From positions 1 through 62,240 of IMG/VR virus record IMGVR_UViG_3300021225_000301: a stretch of 62,240 nucleotides of DNA. One strand, given 5' to 3'. Origin of the DNA: a virus (taxonomy: Duplodnaviria > Caudoviricetes). Under the pieces are notes generated by a model. It saw nothing but the letters and a program-made list of their open reading frames with translations, searched no databases and was not told where the DNA came from. How positions within the stretch are numbered: position 1 is the stretch's first letter; each line of letters begins with the position of its first letter. This document shows positions 2,596 through 57,403 of this stretch, piece by piece. Both the position numbers and the translations under genes were made by a program.

Positions 2596-2911
2596 TTGCT
2601 TTCTCCTCGCTTGCTTTGAGTACACGCTGGTTGCGGCCTGACCTGCCGGGTCGGCGCAGGCCCGTGTCGATGATGAAGCCCTTGTCCAGCAGCGCCCGGT
2701 AGCGGGCCGTGACGGAGCTGTATGGGTAGCCCGGGAACAGCCCGCGCACCTCATCACTGATGCACCCGTTGGGGAACCGCTTGATGGCCTCGTACACAAG
2801 GCCCTCCATCCGCGTCGTGTCGATAGCCTCGGCGGCCTCGTGGCTGGTGTCAGGCGCGTCAGCGCGCACCAGATACTTGGGGTCAGTCCCAAAAGATCCG
2901 AAGGAGTTCAT
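2585..2911 (-). CDS. Winged helix-turn-helix DNA-binding protein
   Basis: R..APDTSHEAA, SSVTARYRALLDKGFI...RPGRSGRNQRV pattern typical of phage wHTH proteins. Confidence 0.7.
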   Translation of the reverse strand: MNSFGSFGTDPKYLVRADAPDTSHEAAEAIDTTRMEGLVYEAIKRFPNGCISDEVRGLFPGYPYSSVTARYRALLDKGFIIDTGLRRPGRSGRNQRVLKASEEKANEA

Positions 2912-3552
2912 CAGCGGTCTCCCCCGAACAGCTTGCGCAGTTCATCGTAAAGCTCGCGTGCCTGCAGTAGCGACATGTCGCGCAGCAAAGCCTGCGTTGA
3001 GGGAATTCCCGGGGGAATTCCCATGGGCACGGCGGCAGGAACAACAGAAGAAGACACTGGTCGCTTCTTCTCAAAAGGAAGGCCCGTCTTCTTCGACACG
3101 AACACCACCTTCTTCCTCTCCTCTCGCTTGGCCTTGGCTGCTGCGCGCTTGGCGGCCTGCTCCTCCAGCCTCTTCATGCGCGCGAGCGTGCGGTGCCCTT
3201 TGATCGGGACGTACTCGGGCGTGGTCGTGTGCAGCAACCCCTCGTCATCGGCCTGCAGCAACCCCTGCCGCAGCATCTGCCCGATCACCGCAGAGACAGA
3301 CCCCATCTTGAACCCTTGGCTGACCATGGCGCTTGTGATGTCAGCGCGGGAACCGGGAGAGTTCTTGATGTGTGCGAACAGCGTTCGGTTGAGGTTGTTG
3401 GTGATTGCGAAGTGGTGCTTGGGTATGGGTTCAGGTTCGGGTGCGGGTGCGGGTGCGGGCTGCACCTCCTGCGCCTTAGGTTTTTCCATGGCATCTCGCA
3501 GGTCAGCCATCATCAGCTTCGCACGCAGCATCTCACCTAGCGTCATCGTCAT
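2911..3552 (-). CDS. Putative winged-HTH DNA-binding protein with basic C-terminus
   Basis: Central LFAHIKNSPG...GSVSAVIGQMLRQGLL; start after GGAGAAGCAA. Confidence 0.6.
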   Translation of the reverse strand: MTMTLGEMLRAKLMMADLRDAMEKPKAQEVQPAPAPAPEPEPIPKHHFAITNNLNRTLFAHIKNSPGSRADITSAMVSQGFKMGSVSAVIGQMLRQGLLQADDEGLLHTTTPEYVPIKGHRTLARMKRLEEQAAKRAAAKAKREERKKVVFVSKKTGLPFEKKRPVSSSVVPAAVPMGIPPGIPSTQALLRDMSLLQARELYDELRKLFGGDR

Positions 3553-3588
3553 TTGCTTCTCCAAAGAGTTAATAAAACGGGAACGGAA

Positions 3589-4953: not shown

Positions 4954-5045
4954 CACGGCCTCCACACAAGTACATCGAGCAGCACGACGATGGCTGCGAT
5001 CAGGAACACTACGCGTTCCACTTTCTCTACGGGTGTCAGGTTCAT
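4953..5045 (-). CDS. Small single-TM protein, 30 aa
   Basis: MNLTPVEKVERVVFLIAAIVVLLDVLVWRP; AGGAGAAGCAAATG start. Confidence 0.55.
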   Translation of the reverse strand: MNLTPVEKVERVVFLIAAIVVLLDVLVWRP

Positions 5046-5085
5046 TTGCTTCTCCTAGTTGTGGGGGCCGAAGCCCCCGGGTTTC

Positions 5086-6628: not shown

Positions 6629-7153
6629 TCAATCACACACGATGAAGCGTTCCTCACGCTTCACAACTTCCTCGCGTTCTTTGACCACGATTCTGCATGT
6701 GTCGCTGTCTTCCTTGACGTAGGCGTAGATGCCAACATTAATATTAAAACTACCGGGTACGTAGTGGGATTCCTTCATCAGTTTCTTGTACGCGATGGAT
6801 CGCGTGTCGTGATCCCATGTGAAGTCGCGGTCGAAGTTGTAGTCCCGATTGGGTTGCGTGCCGCTGGTGTAGTCCACAGTGTTGCCCTTCCAGTCGGCGA
6901 ACTTCTCCAGCACCGAGACCAAGCGCTTATCCCTGAACGAGTCGAGGTTGCGCAGGAAGAGGCTGATGTACACACAGTCCGATGAGCCAGCCAGCGACAG
7001 CCTAGCGTCGGCACGTGCCGCGACGGGCAGGGAGTTGAACACCCGAGCCACGACAGGTTGGCGCAGCAGGGTGACCCGCAGGACTGAGCGTGCTGCCTCG
7101 ATAGCAGCGCCACGAGTGGCGATCTTCGCCTTGGTTTTGAATGCGTCTTTCAT
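6629..7153 (-). CDS. Hypothetical early protein
   Basis: AGGAGAAAGCAAATG start at 7153. Confidence 0.7.
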   Translation of the reverse strand: MKDAFKTKAKIATRGAAIEAARSVLRVTLLRQPVVARVFNSLPVAARADARLSLAGSSDCVYISLFLRNLDSFRDKRLVSVLEKFADWKGNTVDYTSGTQPNRDYNFDRDFTWDHDTRSIAYKKLMKESHYVPGSFNINVGIYAYVKEDSDTCRIVVKEREEVVKREERFIVCD

Positions 7154-8149: not shown

Positions 8150-8520
8150 GCTCATACGATCAAGAGTTGAAGGAAGCCCAATGCTAACACGTTTATCGCC
8201 CGAAGTGTCCAGCTTTCCTGCGTGTGAGCGAATGGCTGGGAAGCCCCACGAATACTGGGTTTGCACCATGCTCACACATCTATCGACGTACTTTTCAGGA
8301 AATGCATGCTTCTCAATGGCTCCAAAAAATAACGTGTTAAGAGAGACATCATTACTAACACGTTGAAAAAGATAGGCATACATATATAAAAGTATTTCTA
8401 AATAGATAGATATAGATGTGTGAGAGAAGCGGGCCGCTAGGATTGACGCGGGTTTGCGGGCGATTGCTAGCCCGCAGGAAAGCTGGACATTTGTCTGATG
8501 CGTTTTTTGCATAGTTCTTG
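8150..8520. other. Candidate replication origin
   Basis: Non-coding AT-rich core (~8375-8420) between perfect 17-bp inverted repeats at 8206-8222 and 8473-8489. Confidence 0.5.
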
Positions 8521-8526
8521 GAGTTG

Positions 8527-8542
8527 GGGGAGGTTTCTCCCC
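8527..8542. repeat. Palindrome copy 4, inverted
   Basis: GGGGAGGTTTCTCCCC downstream of the stop at 8552. Confidence 0.9.
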
Positions 8543-8551
8543 CGCTCTGAC

Positions 8552-8770
8552 TCACCAAAGCCCTCGCTGCACGGGGGCTTGCACCTTCTCCAGCCATTGG
8601 ATGAAGCCGTGCTCGCCGGCGAAGATGTGCTTCTCGCCACGCTCGGCGTGCTGCTCCCACACGCAGAAGATTTTGTACTGGGGCTTGGCCTTGCCGCAGG
8701 GGTAGTAGGTGTCGATGGCGAACTGCCTGCCGTTGATGGTGAGGGTGCCGGTGTTTTCGTAGGTGGACAT
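8552..8770 (-). CDS. Hypothetical protein
   Basis: 72-aa ORF with AAGGA RBS. Confidence 0.65.
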   Translation of the reverse strand: MSTYENTGTLTINGRQFAIDTYYPCGKAKPQYKIFCVWEQHAERGEKHIFAGEHGFIQWLEKVQAPVQRGLW

Positions 8771-8861
8771 GGTGGGGTTCCTTTCACTTGATGAGGATGG
8801 CGATACAGGTGGCGACGAGGAGAAGGAGGAGGCAAGCGCCTCCGGATAGGTTACGCATGAG

Positions 8862-9065
8862 TTACTCCTTGGGTTCGATCTCGTTGGCGACGGTGTTCAG
8901 GACGACGTGCAGGGCGGTGAAGGCGGCAGCCCGGTGTTTCTCAGGCAGGGTGGCGATCAAGCCGTAGGCGTAGGACAGGGCGTAACCGAAGTCCTCGCGG
9001 TCAGCGAAGAGGCCGCAGCGCATCTCCTTGGCAAGGTGGGCGAGGTTGGTGGTGGTTTCAGACAT
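8862..9065 (-). CDS. Hypothetical protein
   Basis: 67-aa ORF with AGGAG RBS. Confidence 0.65.
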   Translation of the reverse strand: MSETTTNLAHLAKEMRCGLFADREDFGYALSYAYGLIATLPEKHRAAAFTALHVVLNTVANEIEPKE

Positions 9066-9158
9066 GGGGAACTCCTAGAAAAAGCAGCGGGTGCTGCGGA
9101 TTGACAAGAAAGGGAACAGCGGCCCGGCCTCTTTGCCGTGGCCGCTCGGAAAAACTCG

Positions 9159-9174
9159 GGGGAGAAACCTCCCC
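9159..9174. repeat. Palindrome copy 5
   Basis: GGGGAGAAACCTCCCC downstream of the stop at 9179. Confidence 0.9.
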
Positions 9175-9178
9175 GGGA

Positions 9179-9568
9179 TCACAGAGCGGAGAGGAAGCGC
9201 TTCTTCTGCGCGGGGGTCATCGAGGCAACCAGCGCGAGGGCTTTGGCCACCGGGTCAGCCTTGGCCGAACCGCCGGACTTCTCGGGGCGCACGACGTGAT
9301 AGGTGAACTTGGCCCGAGCCGCGTCGTAGACCTTCTGATCGTCCGCCGTCCGCTCATCGCGTGACCGGCCCATGATGATCTCGGGGTTCTTGCACCCATA
9401 GCCCTTCAAGAAGTTCAGGATGAACTCCTCTCGGCGCGCCTTGCGGGTCACCTCGTCTGCCGTGAGGTACTCGGTGTGCCACACCTCGGACACCTCCAGA
9501 GTGATCCGGGTATGTGCACCGAGGTCGTGAGCGAAGTTTGCGAAGGACAGTTTGATTGCTTTAGCCAT
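9179..9568 (-). CDS. First gene of the early operon, hypothetical
   Basis: AGGAGAAATCATCATG start. Confidence 0.7.
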   Translation of the reverse strand: MAKAIKLSFANFAHDLGAHTRITLEVSEVWHTEYLTADEVTRKARREEFILNFLKGYGCKNPEIIMGRSRDERTADDQKVYDAARAKFTYHVVRPEKSGGSAKADPVAKALALVASMTPAQKKRFLSAL

Positions 9569-9803
9569 GATGATTTCTCCTATGTAGGTGGTATCTGCCG
9601 GGGCCAATCCCCAACCGATGCCTCTATTGTGCTGCAGGGTCGATTTGATAAGCCCTGAGGGTAGTGTTTATGCCCTGAAATCGGCCCTTTCCGACCCGTA
9701 CCCCCTCCCCACCACCCCAAATCCGATGGCCCGGCTGCATCGCACGTAAACACTGTTCCTCACCCGCACTACACATTTCTGTAATACTTAATACACAATC
9801 CAA

Positions 9804-9866
9804 GCCAAATAGGCACCACCCCGTATTCCGGATACACACCAGCTCACGCCAAATAGGCACCACCCC
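9804..9866 (+). repeat. 19-bp direct repeat GCCAAATAGGCACCACCCC x2
   Basis: Copies at 9804-9822 and 9848-9866. Confidence 0.85.
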
Positions 9867-9921
9867 CCTTCCCCAAACTTGACCCCACCCCAAAATTTTT
9901 TAAAAAATTCCAAAGAACCTT

Positions 9922-9937
9922 TGTCAAACGGTAGACA
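9922..9937. promoter_or_regulatory. Putative operator TGTCAA-N4-TAGACA
   Basis: Imperfect palindrome; similar site at 54370-54385. Confidence 0.5.
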
Positions 9938-9947
9938 TGGCCAGACG

Positions 9948-9975
9948 AAAAAAAGCCCCGGGGGTTAGCCGGGGC
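9948..9975 (-). terminator. Intrinsic terminator of the candidate sRNA
   Basis: GCCCCGG-7 nt-CCGGGGC followed by T7 on the minus strand. Confidence 0.8.
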
Positions 9976-10042
9976 CTTGAACAGGAGAGGGTGAAATGAC
10001 GGCCCTTCCCGAGGAGAAGCAGATGACTTGCGACAACTGCTG
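9948..10042 (-). ncRNA. Candidate trans-acting anti-SD small RNA, ~95 nt
   Basis: Bounded by promoter TTGCTT-17-TACACT and a terminator; contains GUCAUCUGCUUCUCCUC and GUCAUUUCACCCUCUCCU, complementary to early-gene initiation regions. Confidence 0.65.
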
Positions 10043-10076
10043 CATTAAGTGTATAGTGCGACGCATCGGTAAGCAA
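10028..10076. promoter_or_regulatory. Overlapping divergent sigma70-like promoters (late operon and sRNA)
   Basis: Plus: TTGCGA(10028)-18-TATAGT(10052). Minus: TTGCTT(10076)-17-TACACT(10053). Confidence 0.6.
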
Positions 10077-10098
10077 GGCGTAACGCCAAAATCCGCAC

Positions 10099-10743
10099 AT
10101 GCTTGAACACCTGATCAGTGACGATCTGGACCCTGTAATCTCAGGTGTCCCCCCAACAGGCTTCACGCCTTTGGAGAAAGCGTCGCCGGAAAACCTGATC
10201 GACGCTCAAGCAGAGACCGCACAATGGTTAGAGGGCCTTGGCCTCACCGACGACAAAGTCAAAGACCAAGCCGCCACCACAACCGCCCGGGCAGCCTTCG
10301 CGGCTATCACCATGGGCACAACGCCAGCCAATATCCAAAACGCCCTGACCTCCATGAAGACGCCCGCTGCTGTGCAGCGTCTGGTGGGTATGCTCACGGC
10401 CTACGACTGGGAATTTGTACAGCAGGCTAAGGAGCTGCGTGGCTACACGGTCGCCAAGCTGCTAGAAGAAACTGAAAACCCCAACGCCAACATCCGCCTG
10501 AAAGCCTTGGGCCTGCTGGGCAAGGTCACTGAGGTGGGTCTGTTCACGGAGAAGATCGAGGTCAAGCAAGCGCCTGCCTCCGATGCTGAGCTGGACGCCC
10601 GGATCAAGGAAAAGTTGGGCAAGTTCATGGGCGTGGTGGACGTGATCGACGTGTACAAAGAAGCCGAAAAAGTAGACACGTTGGAAGTGATCCGTCCAGA
10701 AACCGGCGAAAACCAAACAGATGACAAGCCTGACCAAGCTTGA
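10099..10743 (+). CDS. terS: Probable terminase small subunit
   Basis: Position upstream of and overlapping TerL; helical IRLKALGLLGKVTEVGLFTEK motif. Confidence 0.65.
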   Translation: MLEHLISDDLDPVISGVPPTGFTPLEKASPENLIDAQAETAQWLEGLGLTDDKVKDQAATTTARAAFAAITMGTTPANIQNALTSMKTPAAVQRLVGMLTAYDWEFVQQAKELRGYTVAKLLEETENPNANIRLKALGLLGKVTEVGLFTEKIEVKQAPASDAELDARIKEKLGKFMGVVDVIDVYKEAEKVDTLEVIRPETGENQTDDKPDQA

Positions 10744-12256
10744 GCTGGAAGCCTTGCAAAAGGCCCTGCCGCATATGAATGCGCAGGAGAAGGCCGAGCT
10801 GTTGGCGGATCTGGAAGAGCGCGAGAAGCGCACCCGCTTGGCCGCCGCCAACGACAACATGCTGGGGTTTGCCAAGGCCGTGTACCCCGGGTTCAAAATC
10901 GGGCCGCACCATAAGAAGCTGGCGCGCATCTTCACGGACGTGATCGAGGGGCGCAAAAAGCGCGTCATCATCAACATCGCCCCGCGTATGGGCAAATCCG
11001 AGTTCAGCTCCTACCTGTTCCCCGCCTATTTCCTTGGCAAGTACCCCCAGAAGAAAATCATCATGGGCACGCACACTGCGAGCCTGTCTGAGGACTTTGG
11101 CCGGCGCATCAAAAACCTGATCGACACGGAGGAGTACCGTGAGATTTTTCCAGCAACTGTTCTTGCCGACGACCAGAAGGCGGCTGGTAAATGGTCCACT
11201 TCTGTTGGAGGCCAGTACTATGCGGCGGGTGTCGGCGGCGCTCTTGCTGGTCGTGGCGCTGACCTATTTGTTATTGACGATCCTCACTCTGAGCAGGATA
11301 TAAAGGCCAACTCCGGGCTGGCGTTCGATACGGCGTGGTCTTGGTTCCAAACTGGTCCGCTGCAGCGTCTGATGCCGGGTGGGGCGATCATTATCATCAT
11401 GACGCGCTGGGGTCTGCGCGACCTCACGGGCCGGCTGATCGACTATCAGATCAAAAATCCGGACGCCATCCCATGGGAGATCGTGGAGTTGCCGGCGATT
11501 CTTGAGTCTGAGGACGCAAACGGCAACGTCATCGAAAAAAGCCTGTGGCCCGAGCAGTGGCCAATCGAATCTTTGCAGGCAACCCGCGCATCCATCGACC
11601 CCCGGTACTGGAACGCCCAGTACATGCAGCAGCCGACCTCGGAAAGTTCGGCATTAATTAGTAGAAAATCTTGGCGCATCTGGGAAAGAGACGATCCGCC
11701 CCCGTGCGAGTACGTGATCCAGTCATGGGATACGGCGTTTGAAGCCAAAACCAGCGCTGACTACTCAGCCTGCACAACATGGGGCGTGTTCTACAACGAG
11801 GAAGAGGGCAACAGCCCGCAGATCATCCTGCTGGACGCGTTCAAAGACCGCATGGCCTTCCCAGAACTCAAGGCGATAGCCCTTAAGCACTACAAAGAGT
11901 GGCAGCCTGATGCGTTCATCGTGGAAAAGAAGGCCGCTGGCGCGCCGCTGATCCAAGAGCTGCGCAATATGGGCATCCCAGTCTCTGAGTTCAGCCCGAG
12001 CCGGGGCAACGACAAGACGGTGCGCGTGAACGCAGTTGCGGATTTGTTCACGTCGGGTAAAGTCTGGGCACCTGACACGCGCTGGGCGCGTGAAGTGATT
12101 GAGGAAGTGGCGGCTTTCCCCGTTGGCGATCACGACGACTTTGTGGATACGACCACGCAGGCCCTCTTACGCTACCGGCAGGGCGGGTTCATCAGCTTGG
12201 ACAGCGATGAGCCAGAGGACAGATTTTTTCAGCGTCGCAAAGCGGCGTACTACTGA
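10721..12256 (+). CDS. terL: Terminase large subunit
   Basis: Walker A APRMGKS, Walker B LFVIDDP, nuclease motifs QSWDTA and HDDFVD. Confidence 0.95.
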   Translation: MTSLTKLELEALQKALPHMNAQEKAELLADLEEREKRTRLAAANDNMLGFAKAVYPGFKIGPHHKKLARIFTDVIEGRKKRVIINIAPRMGKSEFSSYLFPAYFLGKYPQKKIIMGTHTASLSEDFGRRIKNLIDTEEYREIFPATVLADDQKAAGKWSTSVGGQYYAAGVGGALAGRGADLFVIDDPHSEQDIKANSGLAFDTAWSWFQTGPLQRLMPGGAIIIIMTRWGLRDLTGRLIDYQIKNPDAIPWEIVELPAILESEDANGNVIEKSLWPEQWPIESLQATRASIDPRYWNAQYMQQPTSESSALISRKSWRIWERDDPPPCEYVIQSWDTAFEAKTSADYSACTTWGVFYNEEEGNSPQIILLDAFKDRMAFPELKAIALKHYKEWQPDAFIVEKKAAGAPLIQELRNMGIPVSEFSPSRGNDKTVRVNAVADLFTSGKVWAPDTRWAREVIEEVAAFPVGDHDDFVDTTTQALLRYRQGGFISLDSDEPEDRFFQRRKAAYY

Positions 12257-53937: not shown

Positions 53938-54351
53938 TCAGTTGGTAGGTTTGCGTACCGAGATGTCGTACTCCGCATGGGAGTTCAACCCGGGCGGTAC
54001 GAGTCCCGGATTCTCTTCGAGAAATTGGTTCATGTTGGACTGCGCGATGCGCTTCTCCAGCAAGTCCACTGCGTCATGCTCGACCACGAACTTCTTGAAG
54101 GAGTCCCAGTCTTGCGTGCTGTAACGGGTCTTGATGGACAGCACCACGGTGCCCTGCGCGGTGCGCACTGATGTGACGCCCATCGTCTTCATCATGTCCT
54201 TCATCGCGTTCTTGATCTCCTCCTGCTGCGCCTTCAGAGCCTCGACCTTGCCGTCGTACTCCTGTGTCAGCGTGGTGATCTCAGTGCGAATCTTGCGGTA
54301 AATCTTCGCGAGCCGATCCAGTGGGATCGTTTCACTCTCAGTCTCTGTCAT
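53938..54351 (-). CDS. Conserved replication-region coiled-coil protein
   Basis: Y.KIR, SVRT..GT, DWDSF..FV, LLEKRI, PPGL. Confidence 0.75.
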   Translation of the reverse strand: MTETESETIPLDRLAKIYRKIRTEITTLTQEYDGKVEALKAQQEEIKNAMKDMMKTMGVTSVRTAQGTVVLSIKTRYSTQDWDSFKKFVVEHDAVDLLEKRIAQSNMNQFLEENPGLVPPGLNSHAEYDISVRKPTN

Positions 54352-54369
54352 TTGCTTCTCCGTGTTATT

Positions 54370-55974: not shown

Positions 55975-55988
55975 CTGCTTCTCCAGTT

Positions 55989-57089: not shown

Positions 57090-57388
57090 TTGAACTTCGC
57101 TGTGTTGATTGCCTTGGACAGGCGGTTGGCGAACCGGGTCACGAACTTCTCGTTGTTGTACAGGCTGCTGCCCATGTCATAGAGGATCGCGTGTGTCAGC
57201 TCGTGCCAGAACGTGTCACTGACTTCTTCTTTGGAAAACGGCTTGTCGGTGACGTTGCACTTCTTGGCAACTTCGATCTCGCCCGTACCGTAGTACACGT
57301 ACCCCATCTGCGCCTTGCGCTGCATGGTCTCGACGATCTCGACCGAGTACCAGCGGTCTCCTACTTTCACTTTCTTTGGCAAGTCCAT
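57086..57388 (-). CDS. Small HExxH metallopeptidase-like protein
   Basis: TFWHELTHAIL...NEKFV. Confidence 0.75.
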   Translation of the reverse strand: MDLPKKVKVGDRWYSVEIVETMQRKAQMGYVYYGTGEIEVAKKCNVTDKPFSKEEVSDTFWHELTHAILYDMGSSLYNNEKFVTRFANRLSKAINTAKFK

Positions 57389-57403
57389 CTGCTTCTCCTT
57401 GGG

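What the first reader, a model, noticed from the sequence alone, without database searches (positions are those of the whole stretch)
9948..10076. Candidate master-switch sRNA: one anti-SD RNA matching a standardised initiation motif on about 14 early and replication genes
Seen: a minus-strand unit with promoter TTGCTT-17-TACACT (10076-10048) and an intrinsic terminator (9975-9948). The predicted RNA is approximately CAGCAGUUGUCGCAA-GUCAUCUGCUUCUCCUC-GGGAAGGGCC-GUCAUUUCACCCUCUCCU-GUUCAAG plus the terminator. Seed 1 (10011-10027) is complementary to the SD plus start codon of several minus-strand genes: 57388 (14/14, 57386-57399), the SNF2 helicase 55974 (13 nt with one G-U), and 54351, 3552 and 5045 (15 nt with one mismatch). 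It also pairs with 2595, 4511, 4807 and 7153 (one mismatch plus one bulge). Seed 2 (9983-10000) pairs with the GTG-start gene 2395 (12 nt with one G-U, 2393-2404) and, across an internal loop, with 575, 712, 1296 and 1625. Late-gene starts (e.g. AAGGAGTAAAGATG, AAGGAGTAATTAAAAATG) share little beyond AGGAG. Established: SD-occluding sRNAs repress translation, and RNA-based phage control exists (P1 C4, P4 CI). Inference: the phage has standardised its early and replication RBSs so that one RNA can silence them together, as an early-to-late switch or an RNA-based dormancy/immunity repressor. I know of no described regulon of this design.
Basis: partly seen in the sequence, partly recalled or inferred. 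Interest (0 to 1): 0.93.

Follow-up and report, generated by a model that had tools for sequence, protein, structure and literature searches.

The report
Conserved phage anti-ribosome-site small RNA
A large family of uncultured phages keeps a structured RNA gene of about 95 bases beside its packaging genes, and its exposed stretch mirrors the ribosome-binding sites of the phage's own replication genes, so it probably turns their translation down, although no transcript has been seen yet.

Summary
At 9948-10042 (minus strand) there is a small RNA unit. It has a promoter (TTGCTT-17-TACACT), three hairpins, an exposed UCUCCU between hairpins 1 and 2, and an intrinsic terminator. A covariance model finds one copy at the same place and strand in 76 of 76 related viral contigs that hold enough upstream sequence. 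On the model-fitted alignment, 94.8% of stem cells pair, 26 of 27 pairs show compensatory changes, and G-U pairs favour the minus strand. The plus-strand 36-codon ORF is not conserved. It is not in Rfam 15.

The exposed stretch plus the 3' arm of hairpin 1 is complementary (9 or more bases) to 8 early-strand translation start regions in the window. In 14 of 18 genomes or fragments tested the count was 7-20 and few shuffles reached it (0-6 of 500). The shuffles kept the anti-SD core.

Seed variant and majority start-region variant agree in 15 of 15 genomes. This rests on only 2-4 independent switches. One clade of three genomes does not fit. Seed 2 is lineage-specific and lies inside hairpin 2.

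There are no expression data. Repression and its timing are inferred.

This scan has noted the same kind of RNA in other phages, but not on look-alike DNA. My searches found none in print.

The parts
10071..10076 (-). -35 element of the small-RNA promoter (TTGCTT)
   Evidence: Read. A minus-strand TTG at this place occurs in 53 of 53 distinct relatives, with a spacer of 17 nt (48) or 18 nt (5).
10048..10053 (-). -10 element of the small-RNA promoter (TACACT). It is half of a near-palindrome shared with the plus-strand promoter.
   Evidence: The promoter pattern is found only at this locus in the window and in G002-G005; G001 has one further plus-strand match to the pattern, at 10177.
9948..10042 (-). 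Predicted small RNA, about 95 nt. The 5' end is inferred from the -10 element; the 3' end is the terminator U run.
   Evidence: Model R2 scores 71.9 bits, E 1.4e-16, and this is the only hit in the window. The fold is -35.5 kcal/mol, z -3.46 against shuffles.
10018..10041 (-). Hairpin 1 with a GCAA apical loop (10028-10031). Its 3' arm (10018-10025) is the complement of the spacer plus the start codon of the target start regions.
   Evidence: Helices 1 and 2 are 95-97% paired, and all 8 pairs show compensatory changes. The 3' arm has a mean unpaired probability of 0.18.
10012..10017 (-). Exposed anti-Shine-Dalgarno stretch UCUCCU between hairpins 1 and 2 (the toehold of seed 1)
   Evidence: The 7-nt window has a mean unpaired probability of 0.87, and exceeds 0.7 in 49 of 53 distinct RNAs. 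Alignment columns here are nearly invariant.
9982..10011 (-). Hairpin 2.
   Evidence: Helix 3 is 91.5% paired, and 10 of 10 pairs show compensatory changes. The seed-2 sequence occurs only in the closest relatives.
9948..9978 (-). Intrinsic terminator (10-pair stem, 7 G-C, then U7)
   Evidence: Helix 4 is 95.4% paired, and 8 of 9 pairs show compensatory changes.
10028..10057 (+). Divergent plus-strand promoter (TTGCGA-18-TATAGT) facing gene 10099-10743 and the structural genes. Its -10 element overlaps that of the small RNA, and its -35 element is the GCAA loop read on the other strand.
   Evidence: A TTG -35 element with a 16-18 nt spacer occurs in 45 of 53 distinct relatives.
57386..57399 (-). 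Target start region of a 100-aa early gene; 14 of 14 complementary
55975..55984 (-). Target start region of the SNF2-family helicase gene (start 55974); 10 contiguous pairs followed by a G-U
   Evidence: Pfam SNF2-rel_dom, E 2.9e-27.
54353..54361 (-). Target start region of gene 53938-54351 (DUF7307); 9 contiguous pairs
5047..5056 (-). Target start region of a short ORF starting at 5045; 10 contiguous pairs
3554..3562 (-). Target start region of gene 2911-3552; 9 contiguous pairs
2601..2609 (-). Target start region of the ORF starting at 2595 (GGAGAAAGC class); 9 contiguous pairs followed by a one-base bulge
9996..10106 (+). 36-codon plus-strand ORF (internal start at 10023). Judged not to be a gene.
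   Evidence: In 53 distinct relatives, 14 have no start codon 4-10 nt after the GGAG. Only 34 have an ORF of 20 or more codons. The peptides are unrelated and lie in different frames relative to the conserved bases.

Best explanation
The locus is a small non-coding RNA gene of the phage, about 95 nt long. It is transcribed leftward from a sigma-70-like promoter. That promoter's -10 element overlaps the -10 element of the rightward promoter of the packaging and structural operon. Transcription ends at a strong intrinsic terminator just upstream of the early promoter region.

The RNA folds into three parts. Hairpin 1 has a GNRA loop. Then comes a single-stranded UCUCCU(U/C). Then come a variable hairpin 2 and the terminator hairpin with its U tail.

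The most likely mechanism is as follows. The exposed anti-SD stretch docks on the AAGGAGA of delayed-early and replication mRNAs. Pairing then spreads into the 3' arm of hairpin 1, which is the complement of the standard spacer and start codon (GAAGCA(A/G)AUG). This occludes the ribosome-binding site and lowers translation of that gene class.

Shown: the gene-like anatomy, its conservation and covariation, the strand, the complementarity and its enrichment.

Inferred: that the RNA is made, that it pairs in vivo, that the effect is repression, and when it acts. Sharing a -10 region with the structural-operon promoter suggests the RNA is made together with, or in competition with, late transcription.
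For: Anatomy:
- Terminator.
- Fold of -35.5 kcal/mol, z -3.46.

Family:
- Model R1, built from 6 near-identical sequences, found 65 matches at E<=1. All lie on the same strand just upstream of the terS-like gene.
- Model R2 found the unit in 76 of 76 loci that have at least 140 nt upstream.
- R2 gave one significant hit per genome in the window and G001-G005.

Covariation on A5:
- 94.8% of cells are paired, against 73.5% in shuffles (0 of 500 reach it) and 45-55% in slid controls.
- 26 of 27 pairs have double changes.

Strand: 132 G-U cells against 13 A-C cells, so 94.8% pair on the minus strand and 83.7% on the plus strand.

Promoter: a minus-strand TTG -35 element in 53 of 53 distinct relatives, with a 17 or 18 nt spacer.

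Exposure: the anti-SD window has an unpaired probability above 0.7 in 49 of 53.

Not coding.

Targets (start regions with at least 9 nt complementarity, against anti-SD-fixed shuffles):
- Window 8 (1 of 500), G003 16 (0), G004 11 (2), G005 18 (0), G006 10 (2), G007 12 (1), G008 9 (1), G015 9 (0), G014 7 (0).
- G016 15 (2), G017 20 (0), G018 7 (3), G019 12 (6), G020 8 (4).
- In six near-complete genomes there are 58 early-strand against 7 late-strand start-region hits.

Seed type GCUUCUCC or GCUUUCUCC agrees with the majority start-region type GGAGAAGC or GGAGAAAGC in 15 of 15 genomes. There are 4 switches on the tree of the neighbouring gene.
Against: - No RNA data exist.
- Only 6-7 nt, a generic anti-SD, is predicted to be free. 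The early-specific part is paired in hairpin 1, with unpaired probability 0.18.
- G001, G002 and G011 keep the RNA, but their seeds do not match their own GGAGAACC start regions. Their hits are 4, 1 and 0, reached by 9, 335 and 500 of 500 shuffles. G010 is marginal at 4 hits (36 of 500).
- In the window, the cores of other phages would hit 10-12 start regions against 8 for its own.
- The window has nearly as many GGAGAAAGC (4) and GGAGAAACG (4) start regions as GGAGAAGC (5).
- After correcting for relatedness there are only 2 independent seed switches on well-supported branches, or 4 on all branches. The sign test gives p 0.5.
- The covariation counts come from an alignment fitted to the model.
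- The conserved GCAA and the bases around it are also the -35 element of the plus-strand promoter. The GGAGAAGCA lies at about -41 to -53 of that promoter, so a DNA-level constraint cannot be excluded.
- A duplex-energy test with a loose cut-off did not separate early from late start regions well.
Confidence: 0.5

Rival explanations
1. The RNA is real but is a general anti-Shine-Dalgarno RNA. Its main business is host mRNAs or translation at large, by competing with the 16S rRNA tail for AAGGAG sites or by titrating an RNA chaperone. The extra match to phage early start regions would be secondary.
For: The only stretch predicted to be exposed is UCUCCU(U/C), which is complementary to a generic SD. 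Three genomes keep the RNA without a match to their own start regions. The weak Rfam resemblances are all to bacterial C/U-rich anti-SD sRNAs.
Against: The bases 5' of the anti-SD (UGCU, often CAUUUGCU) are as conserved as the anti-SD itself. They match the phage's own spacer and start codon. Enrichment over anti-SD-fixed shuffles is seen in 14 of 18 genomes or fragments. The one-base seed variant tracks the start-region variant in 15 of 15. The host is unknown, so host targets could not be examined.
Confidence: 0.2
2. The element works in cis at the DNA or transcription level. It would be a bidirectional promoter with a short terminated leftward transcript that insulates the early operon and competes with the structural-operon promoter. 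The conserved purine-rich motif would be a protein or UP-like site upstream of the rightward promoter. Alternatively, it is an inverted copy of the dispersed gene-junction repeat, kept alike by recombination.
For: The -10 elements overlap and both promoters are conserved. The motif sits at about -41 to -53 of the rightward promoter. The terminator lies directly upstream of the early promoter region. Junction repeats are dispersed over the early region.
Against: Insulation needs only a terminator. It does not need two further hairpins with compensatory changes in 18 of 18 pairs, nor a stretch kept single-stranded in 49 of 53 RNAs. The many G-U pairs point to selection on the RNA of the minus strand. 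A DNA site for a regulator would not be expected to equal the early ribosome-binding motif and to change with it.
Confidence: 0.15
3. The pairing is the same but the sign is opposite. The RNA would activate or stabilise the early messages, for example by protecting junctions from RNase cleavage or by opening inhibitory structure.
For: The complementarity data do not give the direction of the effect.
Against: The duplex would cover both the SD and the start codon. In characterised sRNAs this blocks initiation (established knowledge, recalled). No inhibitory structure at the start regions was looked for.
Confidence: 0.07
4. The two motifs are ribosome-binding sites of a real plus-strand small protein (36 or 27 codons), translationally coupled to gene 10099-10743.
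For: In the window and its closest relatives an ORF runs from a good SD to an ATGCTTGA overlap with the next gene. 37 of 53 distinct relatives have an ATG after the GGAG.
Against: 14 of 53 have no start codon and 5 more stop within 14 codons. Two close relatives (L006, L013) stop after 6 codons. The peptides are unrelated, and the frame differs relative to the conserved bases. The rightward promoter lies downstream of these starts. Stem covariation with G-U pairs fits the minus strand.
Confidence: 0.03

Closest known systems
Start-Associated Sequences (SAS/ESAS) of Cluster K mycobacteriophages (Pope et al. 2011, PMC3203893; passages read; still called of proposed regulatory role in PMC12699233, passages read)
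   Same: A short conserved block containing the SD lies a few bases before the start codon of many non-structural genes and of no structural genes. It sits in front of unrelated genes. Nearly all copies have one orientation, with a single copy on the other strand in several phages. The authors left open whether an RNA or a protein binds it.
   Different: The sequence is different (GGGATAGGAGCCC) and the hosts are actinobacterial and temperate. No small RNA gene was described for the inverted copy. Here the inverted copy sits in a conserved promoter-hairpins-terminator unit.
T4 RegA translational repressor and RegB endoribonuclease (review PMC3014915; passages read)
   Same: One phage factor acts on the translation initiation regions of a whole class of early and middle messages. 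RegA competes with ribosomes on about 30 mRNAs. RegB cuts GGAG in early SDs.
   Different: Those factors are proteins. Here the proposed factor is an RNA that recognises the sites by base pairing. There is no homology.
c4 antisense RNA of phages P1 and P7 (as summarised in review PMC12197685; passages read)
   Same: A phage-encoded structured RNA whose exposed sequences pair near a ribosome-binding site of a phage message and block translation in trans.
   Different: c4 controls one operon (ant). It is cut out of the same transcript that it regulates, and it serves immunity in a temperate phage. Here the RNA has its own promoter and a predicted set of 7-20 targets. No lysogeny genes were found among the 16 proteins checked. 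There was no Rfam match to any C4 model at E<=10.
Bacterial C/U-rich anti-SD sRNAs (Rfam RF02278 Betaproteobacteria toxic sRNA, RF02345 ar15, RF02232 sX13, RF02837 anti-hemB)
   Same: Short RNAs with hairpins, an exposed C/U-rich anti-SD stretch and an intrinsic terminator. They gave the only (weak) Rfam resemblances.
   Different: Scores of 20.6, 18.6, 15.0 and 14.2 bits are far below the gathering scores of 50, 40, 50 and 49.5. Those RNAs are chromosomal genes acting on host messages.

Membership tests
Rfam RF02278 Betaproteobacteria_toxic_sRNA | Score at or above the curated gathering score (50 bits) of the covariance model | tested here: not met
   20.6 bits, E 0.45 at 9947-9996 minus strand
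Rfam RF02232 sX13 / RF02345 ar15 / RF02837 anti-hemB | Score at or above the gathering score (50 / 40 / 49.5 bits) | tested here: not met
   15.0, 18.6 and 14.2 bits
c4 antisense RNA (P1/P7) | Match to a curated C4 model | tested here: not met
   No C4 family among the matches up to E 10 in 8500-11000
c4 antisense RNA (P1/P7) | Processed out of the transcript of the operon that it regulates (feature recalled; partly stated in PMC12197685) | tested here: not met
   The unit has its own conserved promoter and its own terminator
Trans-acting base-pairing sRNA with intrinsic terminator (Hfq-type module) | Own promoter, terminator hairpin with a 3' U tail, and a U-rich linker before it (module definition recalled) | tested here: met
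   Promoter in 53 of 53. My rule found a terminator stem followed by a T run of 5 or more in 70 of the 72 loci examined, that is 53 distinct sequences. L032 and L033 failed the rule because their tail is a weaker TTTTCTTT. U-rich linkers can be read in the sequences.
Trans-acting base-pairing sRNA with intrinsic terminator (Hfq-type module) | Conserved single-stranded seed | tested here: met
   Alignment columns are nearly invariant. Unpaired probability exceeds 0.7 in 49 of 53.
Trans-acting base-pairing sRNA with intrinsic terminator (Hfq-type module) | Transcript detected; chaperone binding; effect on targets | not testable with these tools
   No RNA holder was listed. The one run laid is probably DNA.
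SAS-like standardised translation start block | The same SD-containing block lies 3-8 nt before the start of many non-structural genes and not of structural genes | tested here: met
   GGAGAAGCA[A/G] x5, GGAGAAAGCAA x4 and GGAGAAACGAA x4 occur before early-strand starts. No SD-to-start string is repeated on the late strand.
SAS-like standardised translation start block | Sequence identity to the SAS consensus of Cluster K phages | tested here: not met
   The motif differs. The resemblance is one of design, not descent.

The most novel reading that the evidence does not exclude
This would be an RNA counterpart of T4 RegA/RegB. A single phage sRNA is fired from a promoter that shares its -10 region with the structural-gene promoter. 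It docks by a 6-7 nt anti-SD toehold and then unzips its own first hairpin onto the standard spacer and start codon of 8-20 delayed-early and replication genes. This shuts the class off as late transcription starts. The first three early genes, which lack the block, would escape. The standard junction and the seed would then evolve in concert. That would also give the function that has been sought since 2011 for start-associated sequences in other phages.
Probability: 0.3. Interest if true: 0.85.

Novelty: new variant of a known kind. Interest (0 to 1): 0.72.

Why it matters
Phage temporal programmes are explained almost entirely by transcription factors and a few RNA-binding proteins. A widely conserved phage sRNA aimed at the start regions of the phage's own replication genes would add an RNA layer to early-to-late switching.

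The family is large. The neighbouring gene has 587 relatives in IMG/VR, and the RNA was found in all 76 loci that could be tested.

It would also explain why some phages standardise the ribosome-binding sites of non-structural genes. This question has been open since the SAS report (PMC3203893).

Finally, it would give a compact, portable pair of parts (seed and start block) that can be tested with reporters. The family is absent from Rfam 15. It was not found in my four literature searches, nor in the passages read of a 2025 review of phage sRNAs. That review's supplementary table of 38 sRNAs without assigned function could not be seen.

Tried and rejected
- blastn of 9600-10800 against GenBank phages gave no match.
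- tblastn with the large terminase found only distant cultured relatives, at most 52% identity. Model R2 found nothing within 3 kb of terL in three of them: 023Pt_psg01, DSL-LC04 and HTVC027P.
- An exact 30-mer of the window had no match in viral contigs.
- Rfam gave nothing at gathering scores.
- RNAalifold on plain MAFFT alignments of 53 sequences gave zero pairs, because the hairpins differ in length. Alignments A2 and A3 were also structurally out of register. I therefore built a model from 6 near-identical sequences with a structure written by hand from the MFE fold and let Infernal realign the family. The pair counts lean towards that structure.
- My two crude gene callers mis-picked starts, for example inside gene 10099-10743. 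I dropped them. Instead I counted a hit as 'at a start region' if an ATG, GTG or TTG with an open frame of at least 30 codons follows within 12 nt. This also admits some false starts, such as 49774 and 5181 in the window.
- Duplex energies with a -13 kcal/mol cut-off were not discriminating: 78 of 100 early and 50 of 83 late pseudo-start regions passed in the window.
- The 3-kb flanks of the 80 loci hold too few standard start regions to test covariation.
- The scan for the B-type seed 15-mer returned mostly unrelated phages. Only 16 of 80 loci held the RNA.
- The independent-pairs test is underpowered, with 2-4 pairs.
- Expression: no RNA holder was listed. The single run laid (X1, contigs, labelled RNA by guess) is probably DNA and shows relatives of the terminase gene only.
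- Immunity or lysogeny reading: no integrase or repressor was found among the 16 early proteins scanned. The check was not exhaustive.
- The name 'terS' for 10099-10743 rests on position alone. PHROGs gave no hit.
Full report
WHAT THE WINDOW IS. The window is a whole IMG/VR viral contig of 62,240 bases, estimated 96% complete. Minus-strand genes run from 9607 down to 1, and from 62240 down to 49559. They include a family A DNA polymerase, an SNF2-family helicase, a DUF927 primase-helicase-like protein and an exonuclease. Plus-strand genes run from 10099 to about 49436 and include the large terminase and the portal. The finding lies in the divergent intergenic region 9608-10098. Cultured relatives are distant: the large terminase is at most 52% identical.

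THE OBSERVATION. The terminator (stem 9978-9952, T run to 9948, minus strand) was found by the scan. The quoted promoter hexamers are present but weak, and the scan did not list them. The RNA sequence is as quoted. It folds at -35.5 kcal/mol (shuffles -25.2 +/- 3.0, z -3.46) into three hairpins, with UCUCCU free between the first two. The early genes really do carry a standardised start block: GGAGAAGCA(A/G)ATG or GTG five times, GGAGAAAGCAAATG four times and GGAGAAACGAAATG four times. No SD-to-start string is repeated on the late strand. The plus strand at 10010-10025 carries the first block, so the minus-strand RNA is its antisense.

IS IT A GENE? The neighbouring gene (10099-10743, 'terS' by position only) has 587 relatives in viral contigs, of which 80 loci were kept. 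By eye, and by simple rules, all 72 loci examined (those with about 200 nt or more of upstream sequence) keep the -10 element. In 70 of them (53 distinct sequences) my rule also found the same order of parts on the minus strand:
- TTGnnn, then 17 nt, then T(G/A)TAYAnT;
- a hairpin with a GCAA loop;
- ..UGCUUCUCCUU..;
- a variable hairpin;
- a G+C-rich hairpin and a T run.

The other two, L032 and L033, have a weaker tail (TTTTCTTT) that my terminator rule missed.

Plain MAFFT alignments could not be folded. I therefore built a covariance model from six nearly identical sequences. It found 65 matches at E<=1, all at this place and on this strand, in 493 kb searched on both strands.

On the resulting alignment:
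- 94.8% of 1067 cells form pairs, against 73.5% in column shuffles (0 of 500 reach it) and 45-55% when partners are slid by 1-3 columns.
- 26 of 27 pairs show changes on both sides.

This alignment is fitted to the model, which favours the structure.

A second model from these 65 sequences found the unit in 76 of the 76 loci that have at least 140 nt upstream of the gene. It gave one significant hit per genome in the window and five near-complete relatives. It gave one per fragment in seven further contigs, and none near terL in three cultured relatives.

There are 132 G-U cells against 13 A-C cells. The stems therefore pair better as minus-strand RNA (94.8%) than as plus-strand RNA (83.7%).

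THE RIVAL ORF. Among the 53 distinct sequences, 37 have an ATG 4-10 nt after the GGAG and 14 have no start codon there. Only 34 have an ORF of 20 codons or more. Two close relatives stop after six codons, and the peptides are unrelated. The frequent ATG is explained equally well if the RNA carries the complement of the targets' start codon.

PROMOTERS. A minus-strand TTG -35 element is present in 53 of 53, with a spacer of 17 nt in 48 and 18 nt in 5. A plus-strand promoter (TTGCGn, 16-18 nt, TAYAnT) is present in 45 of 53. The two -10 elements overlap in a near-palindrome. This promoter pattern occurs only here in the window and in G002-G005; G001 has one further plus-strand match, at 10177. 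The plus-strand -35 element is the GCAA loop read on the other strand. One relative (L072) has GAAA and no plus-strand -35 element. I cannot tell which constraint keeps these bases.

TARGETS. I took a 22-nt core (the 3' arm of hairpin 1, the free stretch, and the start of hairpin 2). I counted sites with at least 9 contiguous Watson-Crick matches followed within 12 nt by a start codon and an open frame of 30 codons or more.

| Genome or fragment | Sites | Shuffles reaching it (of 500) |
|---|---|---|
| Window | 8 (shuffle mean 1.39) | 1 |
| G003 | 16 | 0 |
| G004 | 11 | 2 |
| G005 | 18 | 0 |
| G006 | 10 | 2 |
| G007 | 12 | 1 |
| G008 | 9 | 1 |
| G015 | 9 | 0 |
| G014 | 7 | 0 |
| G016 | 15 | 2 |
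| G017 | 20 | 0 |
| G018 | 7 | 3 |
| G019 | 12 | 6 |
| G020 | 8 | 4 |
| G010 (marginal) | 4 | 36 |
| G001 (weak) | 4 | 9 |
| G002 (none) | 1 | 335 |
| G011 (none; only 7.7 kb held) | 0 | 500 |

The shuffles keep the anti-SD pentamer fixed. In the six near-complete genomes the early strand has 58 such sites and the late strand 7.

COVARIATION OF SEED AND START BLOCK. Eight genomes with the seed GCUUCUCC have more GGAGAAGC than GGAGAAAGC start regions: 5/4, 6/1, 9/2, 3/1, 6/2, 1/0, 4/0 and 3/2. Seven genomes with GCUUUCUCC have the reverse: 1/6, 2/6, 2/5, 0/15, 0/2, 1/2 and 0/2. G017 was picked up through a start region, and its RNA then proved to be of the matching type. The other new genomes were picked up through the seed.

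On a tree of the neighbouring gene the seed type changes four times, of which two are forced by well-supported branches. The independent-pairs test finds 2-4 pairs, all in the same direction, which is too few for significance.

Against the reading:
- G001, G002 and G011 form one clade (support 99). Their seeds have drifted, and G001 and G002 use GGAGAACC start regions (14 and 6) that the seeds do not match.
- In the window, the cores of several other phages would match 10-12 start regions against 8 for its own.

ACCESSIBILITY. Across the 53 RNAs the seven bases UCUCCU(U/C) have a mean unpaired probability of 0.87, above 0.7 in 49. The eight bases 5' of them, which give specificity for early start regions, have 0.18, because they form the 3' arm of hairpin 1. 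Pairing beyond a generic SD therefore requires opening that hairpin. A toehold mechanism is plausible but inferred.

SEED 2. It lies in the loop and 3' arm of hairpin 2. It is present only in the 13 closest distinct sequences. Elsewhere hairpin 2 is short and unrelated. It may be a lineage-specific second contact, since the loop UCAUUUC is the complement of GAAAUGA in the third start block. It is not a family feature.

EXPRESSION. No RNA run holds the stretch. The run that was laid is probably DNA.

KNOWN THINGS.
- Rfam 15 has nothing at gathering score. The weak hits are bacterial anti-SD sRNAs.
- A 2025 review of phage sRNAs (PMC12197685, passages read) describes VpdS, PreS, 24B_1, OOP, aQ, sas, c4, AsxR and others. 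None of the passages read describes an RNA aimed at a class of the phage's own start regions. Its supplementary table could not be seen.
- A survey of Pseudomonas phage transcriptomes lists many uncharacterised ncRNAs (PMC10914365, passages read).
- T4 RegA and RegB are protein analogues (PMC3014915, passages read).
- The nearest precedent for the start-block side is the SAS of Cluster K mycobacteriophages. There, a single copy on the opposite strand was noted, and an RNA or protein partner was left open (PMC3203893, passages read). A 2025 paper still calls the role proposed (PMC12699233, passages read).
- Searches for a described regulon of this design found none.

Earlier notes of this scan report the same kind of RNA in other phage genomes, but none on look-alike DNA. 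I treat those notes as leads only.

VERDICT. The small RNA gene is very probably real (about 0.9) and defines a new RNA family. That it pairs with, and represses, the standardised start regions of delayed-early and replication genes is the best explanation, at about 0.5. Timing and any immunity role are open.

Noticed in passing
window 9804-9822 and 9848-9866: A 19-base direct repeat (GCCAAATAGGCACCACCCC) occurs twice, 44 bases apart. It lies in the non-coding stretch between the small-RNA terminator and the first early gene, and could be a pair of operator sites.
   Followed up: no
window 9890-9930: An A+T-rich near-palindrome (AAAATTTTTTAAAAAATT) lies next to a perfect minus-strand TTGACA (9927-9922), just downstream of the small-RNA terminator. 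It is a likely early promoter. Relatives keep an A+T-rich block and a TGTC(A/T)AACG motif here.
   Followed up: partly
window 9568, 9065, 8770 (starts, minus strand): The first three genes after the early promoter region lack the standard start block. The first copy is at 7153. If the RNA represses, these immediate-early genes would escape.
   Followed up: partly
window 575, 712, 1296, 1625, 4511, 4807 (starts, minus strand): In the GGAGAAACGAAATGA and GGAGAAAGCAAATGA junctions, the block is at once the end of the upstream gene (stop TGA overlapping the ATG) and the start region of the next gene.
   Followed up: partly
G001 (L082-L085) and G002 (L086-L089), early strand: These two near-complete relatives standardise a different block, GGAGAACCA(A/C)CATG, at 14 and 6 start regions. 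Their small RNA has a drifted seed that does not match it.
   Followed up: partly
window 10099-10743: The gene called terS by position has no PHROGs match and no recognisable SD before its ATG. Its relatives likewise start without an SD.
   Followed up: no
window 54351, 55974, 57388 upstream regions: The three distal targets share a further motif, ACAAATAA, about 5 bases upstream of the GGAG. The repeated unit is therefore longer than the start block.
   Followed up: no
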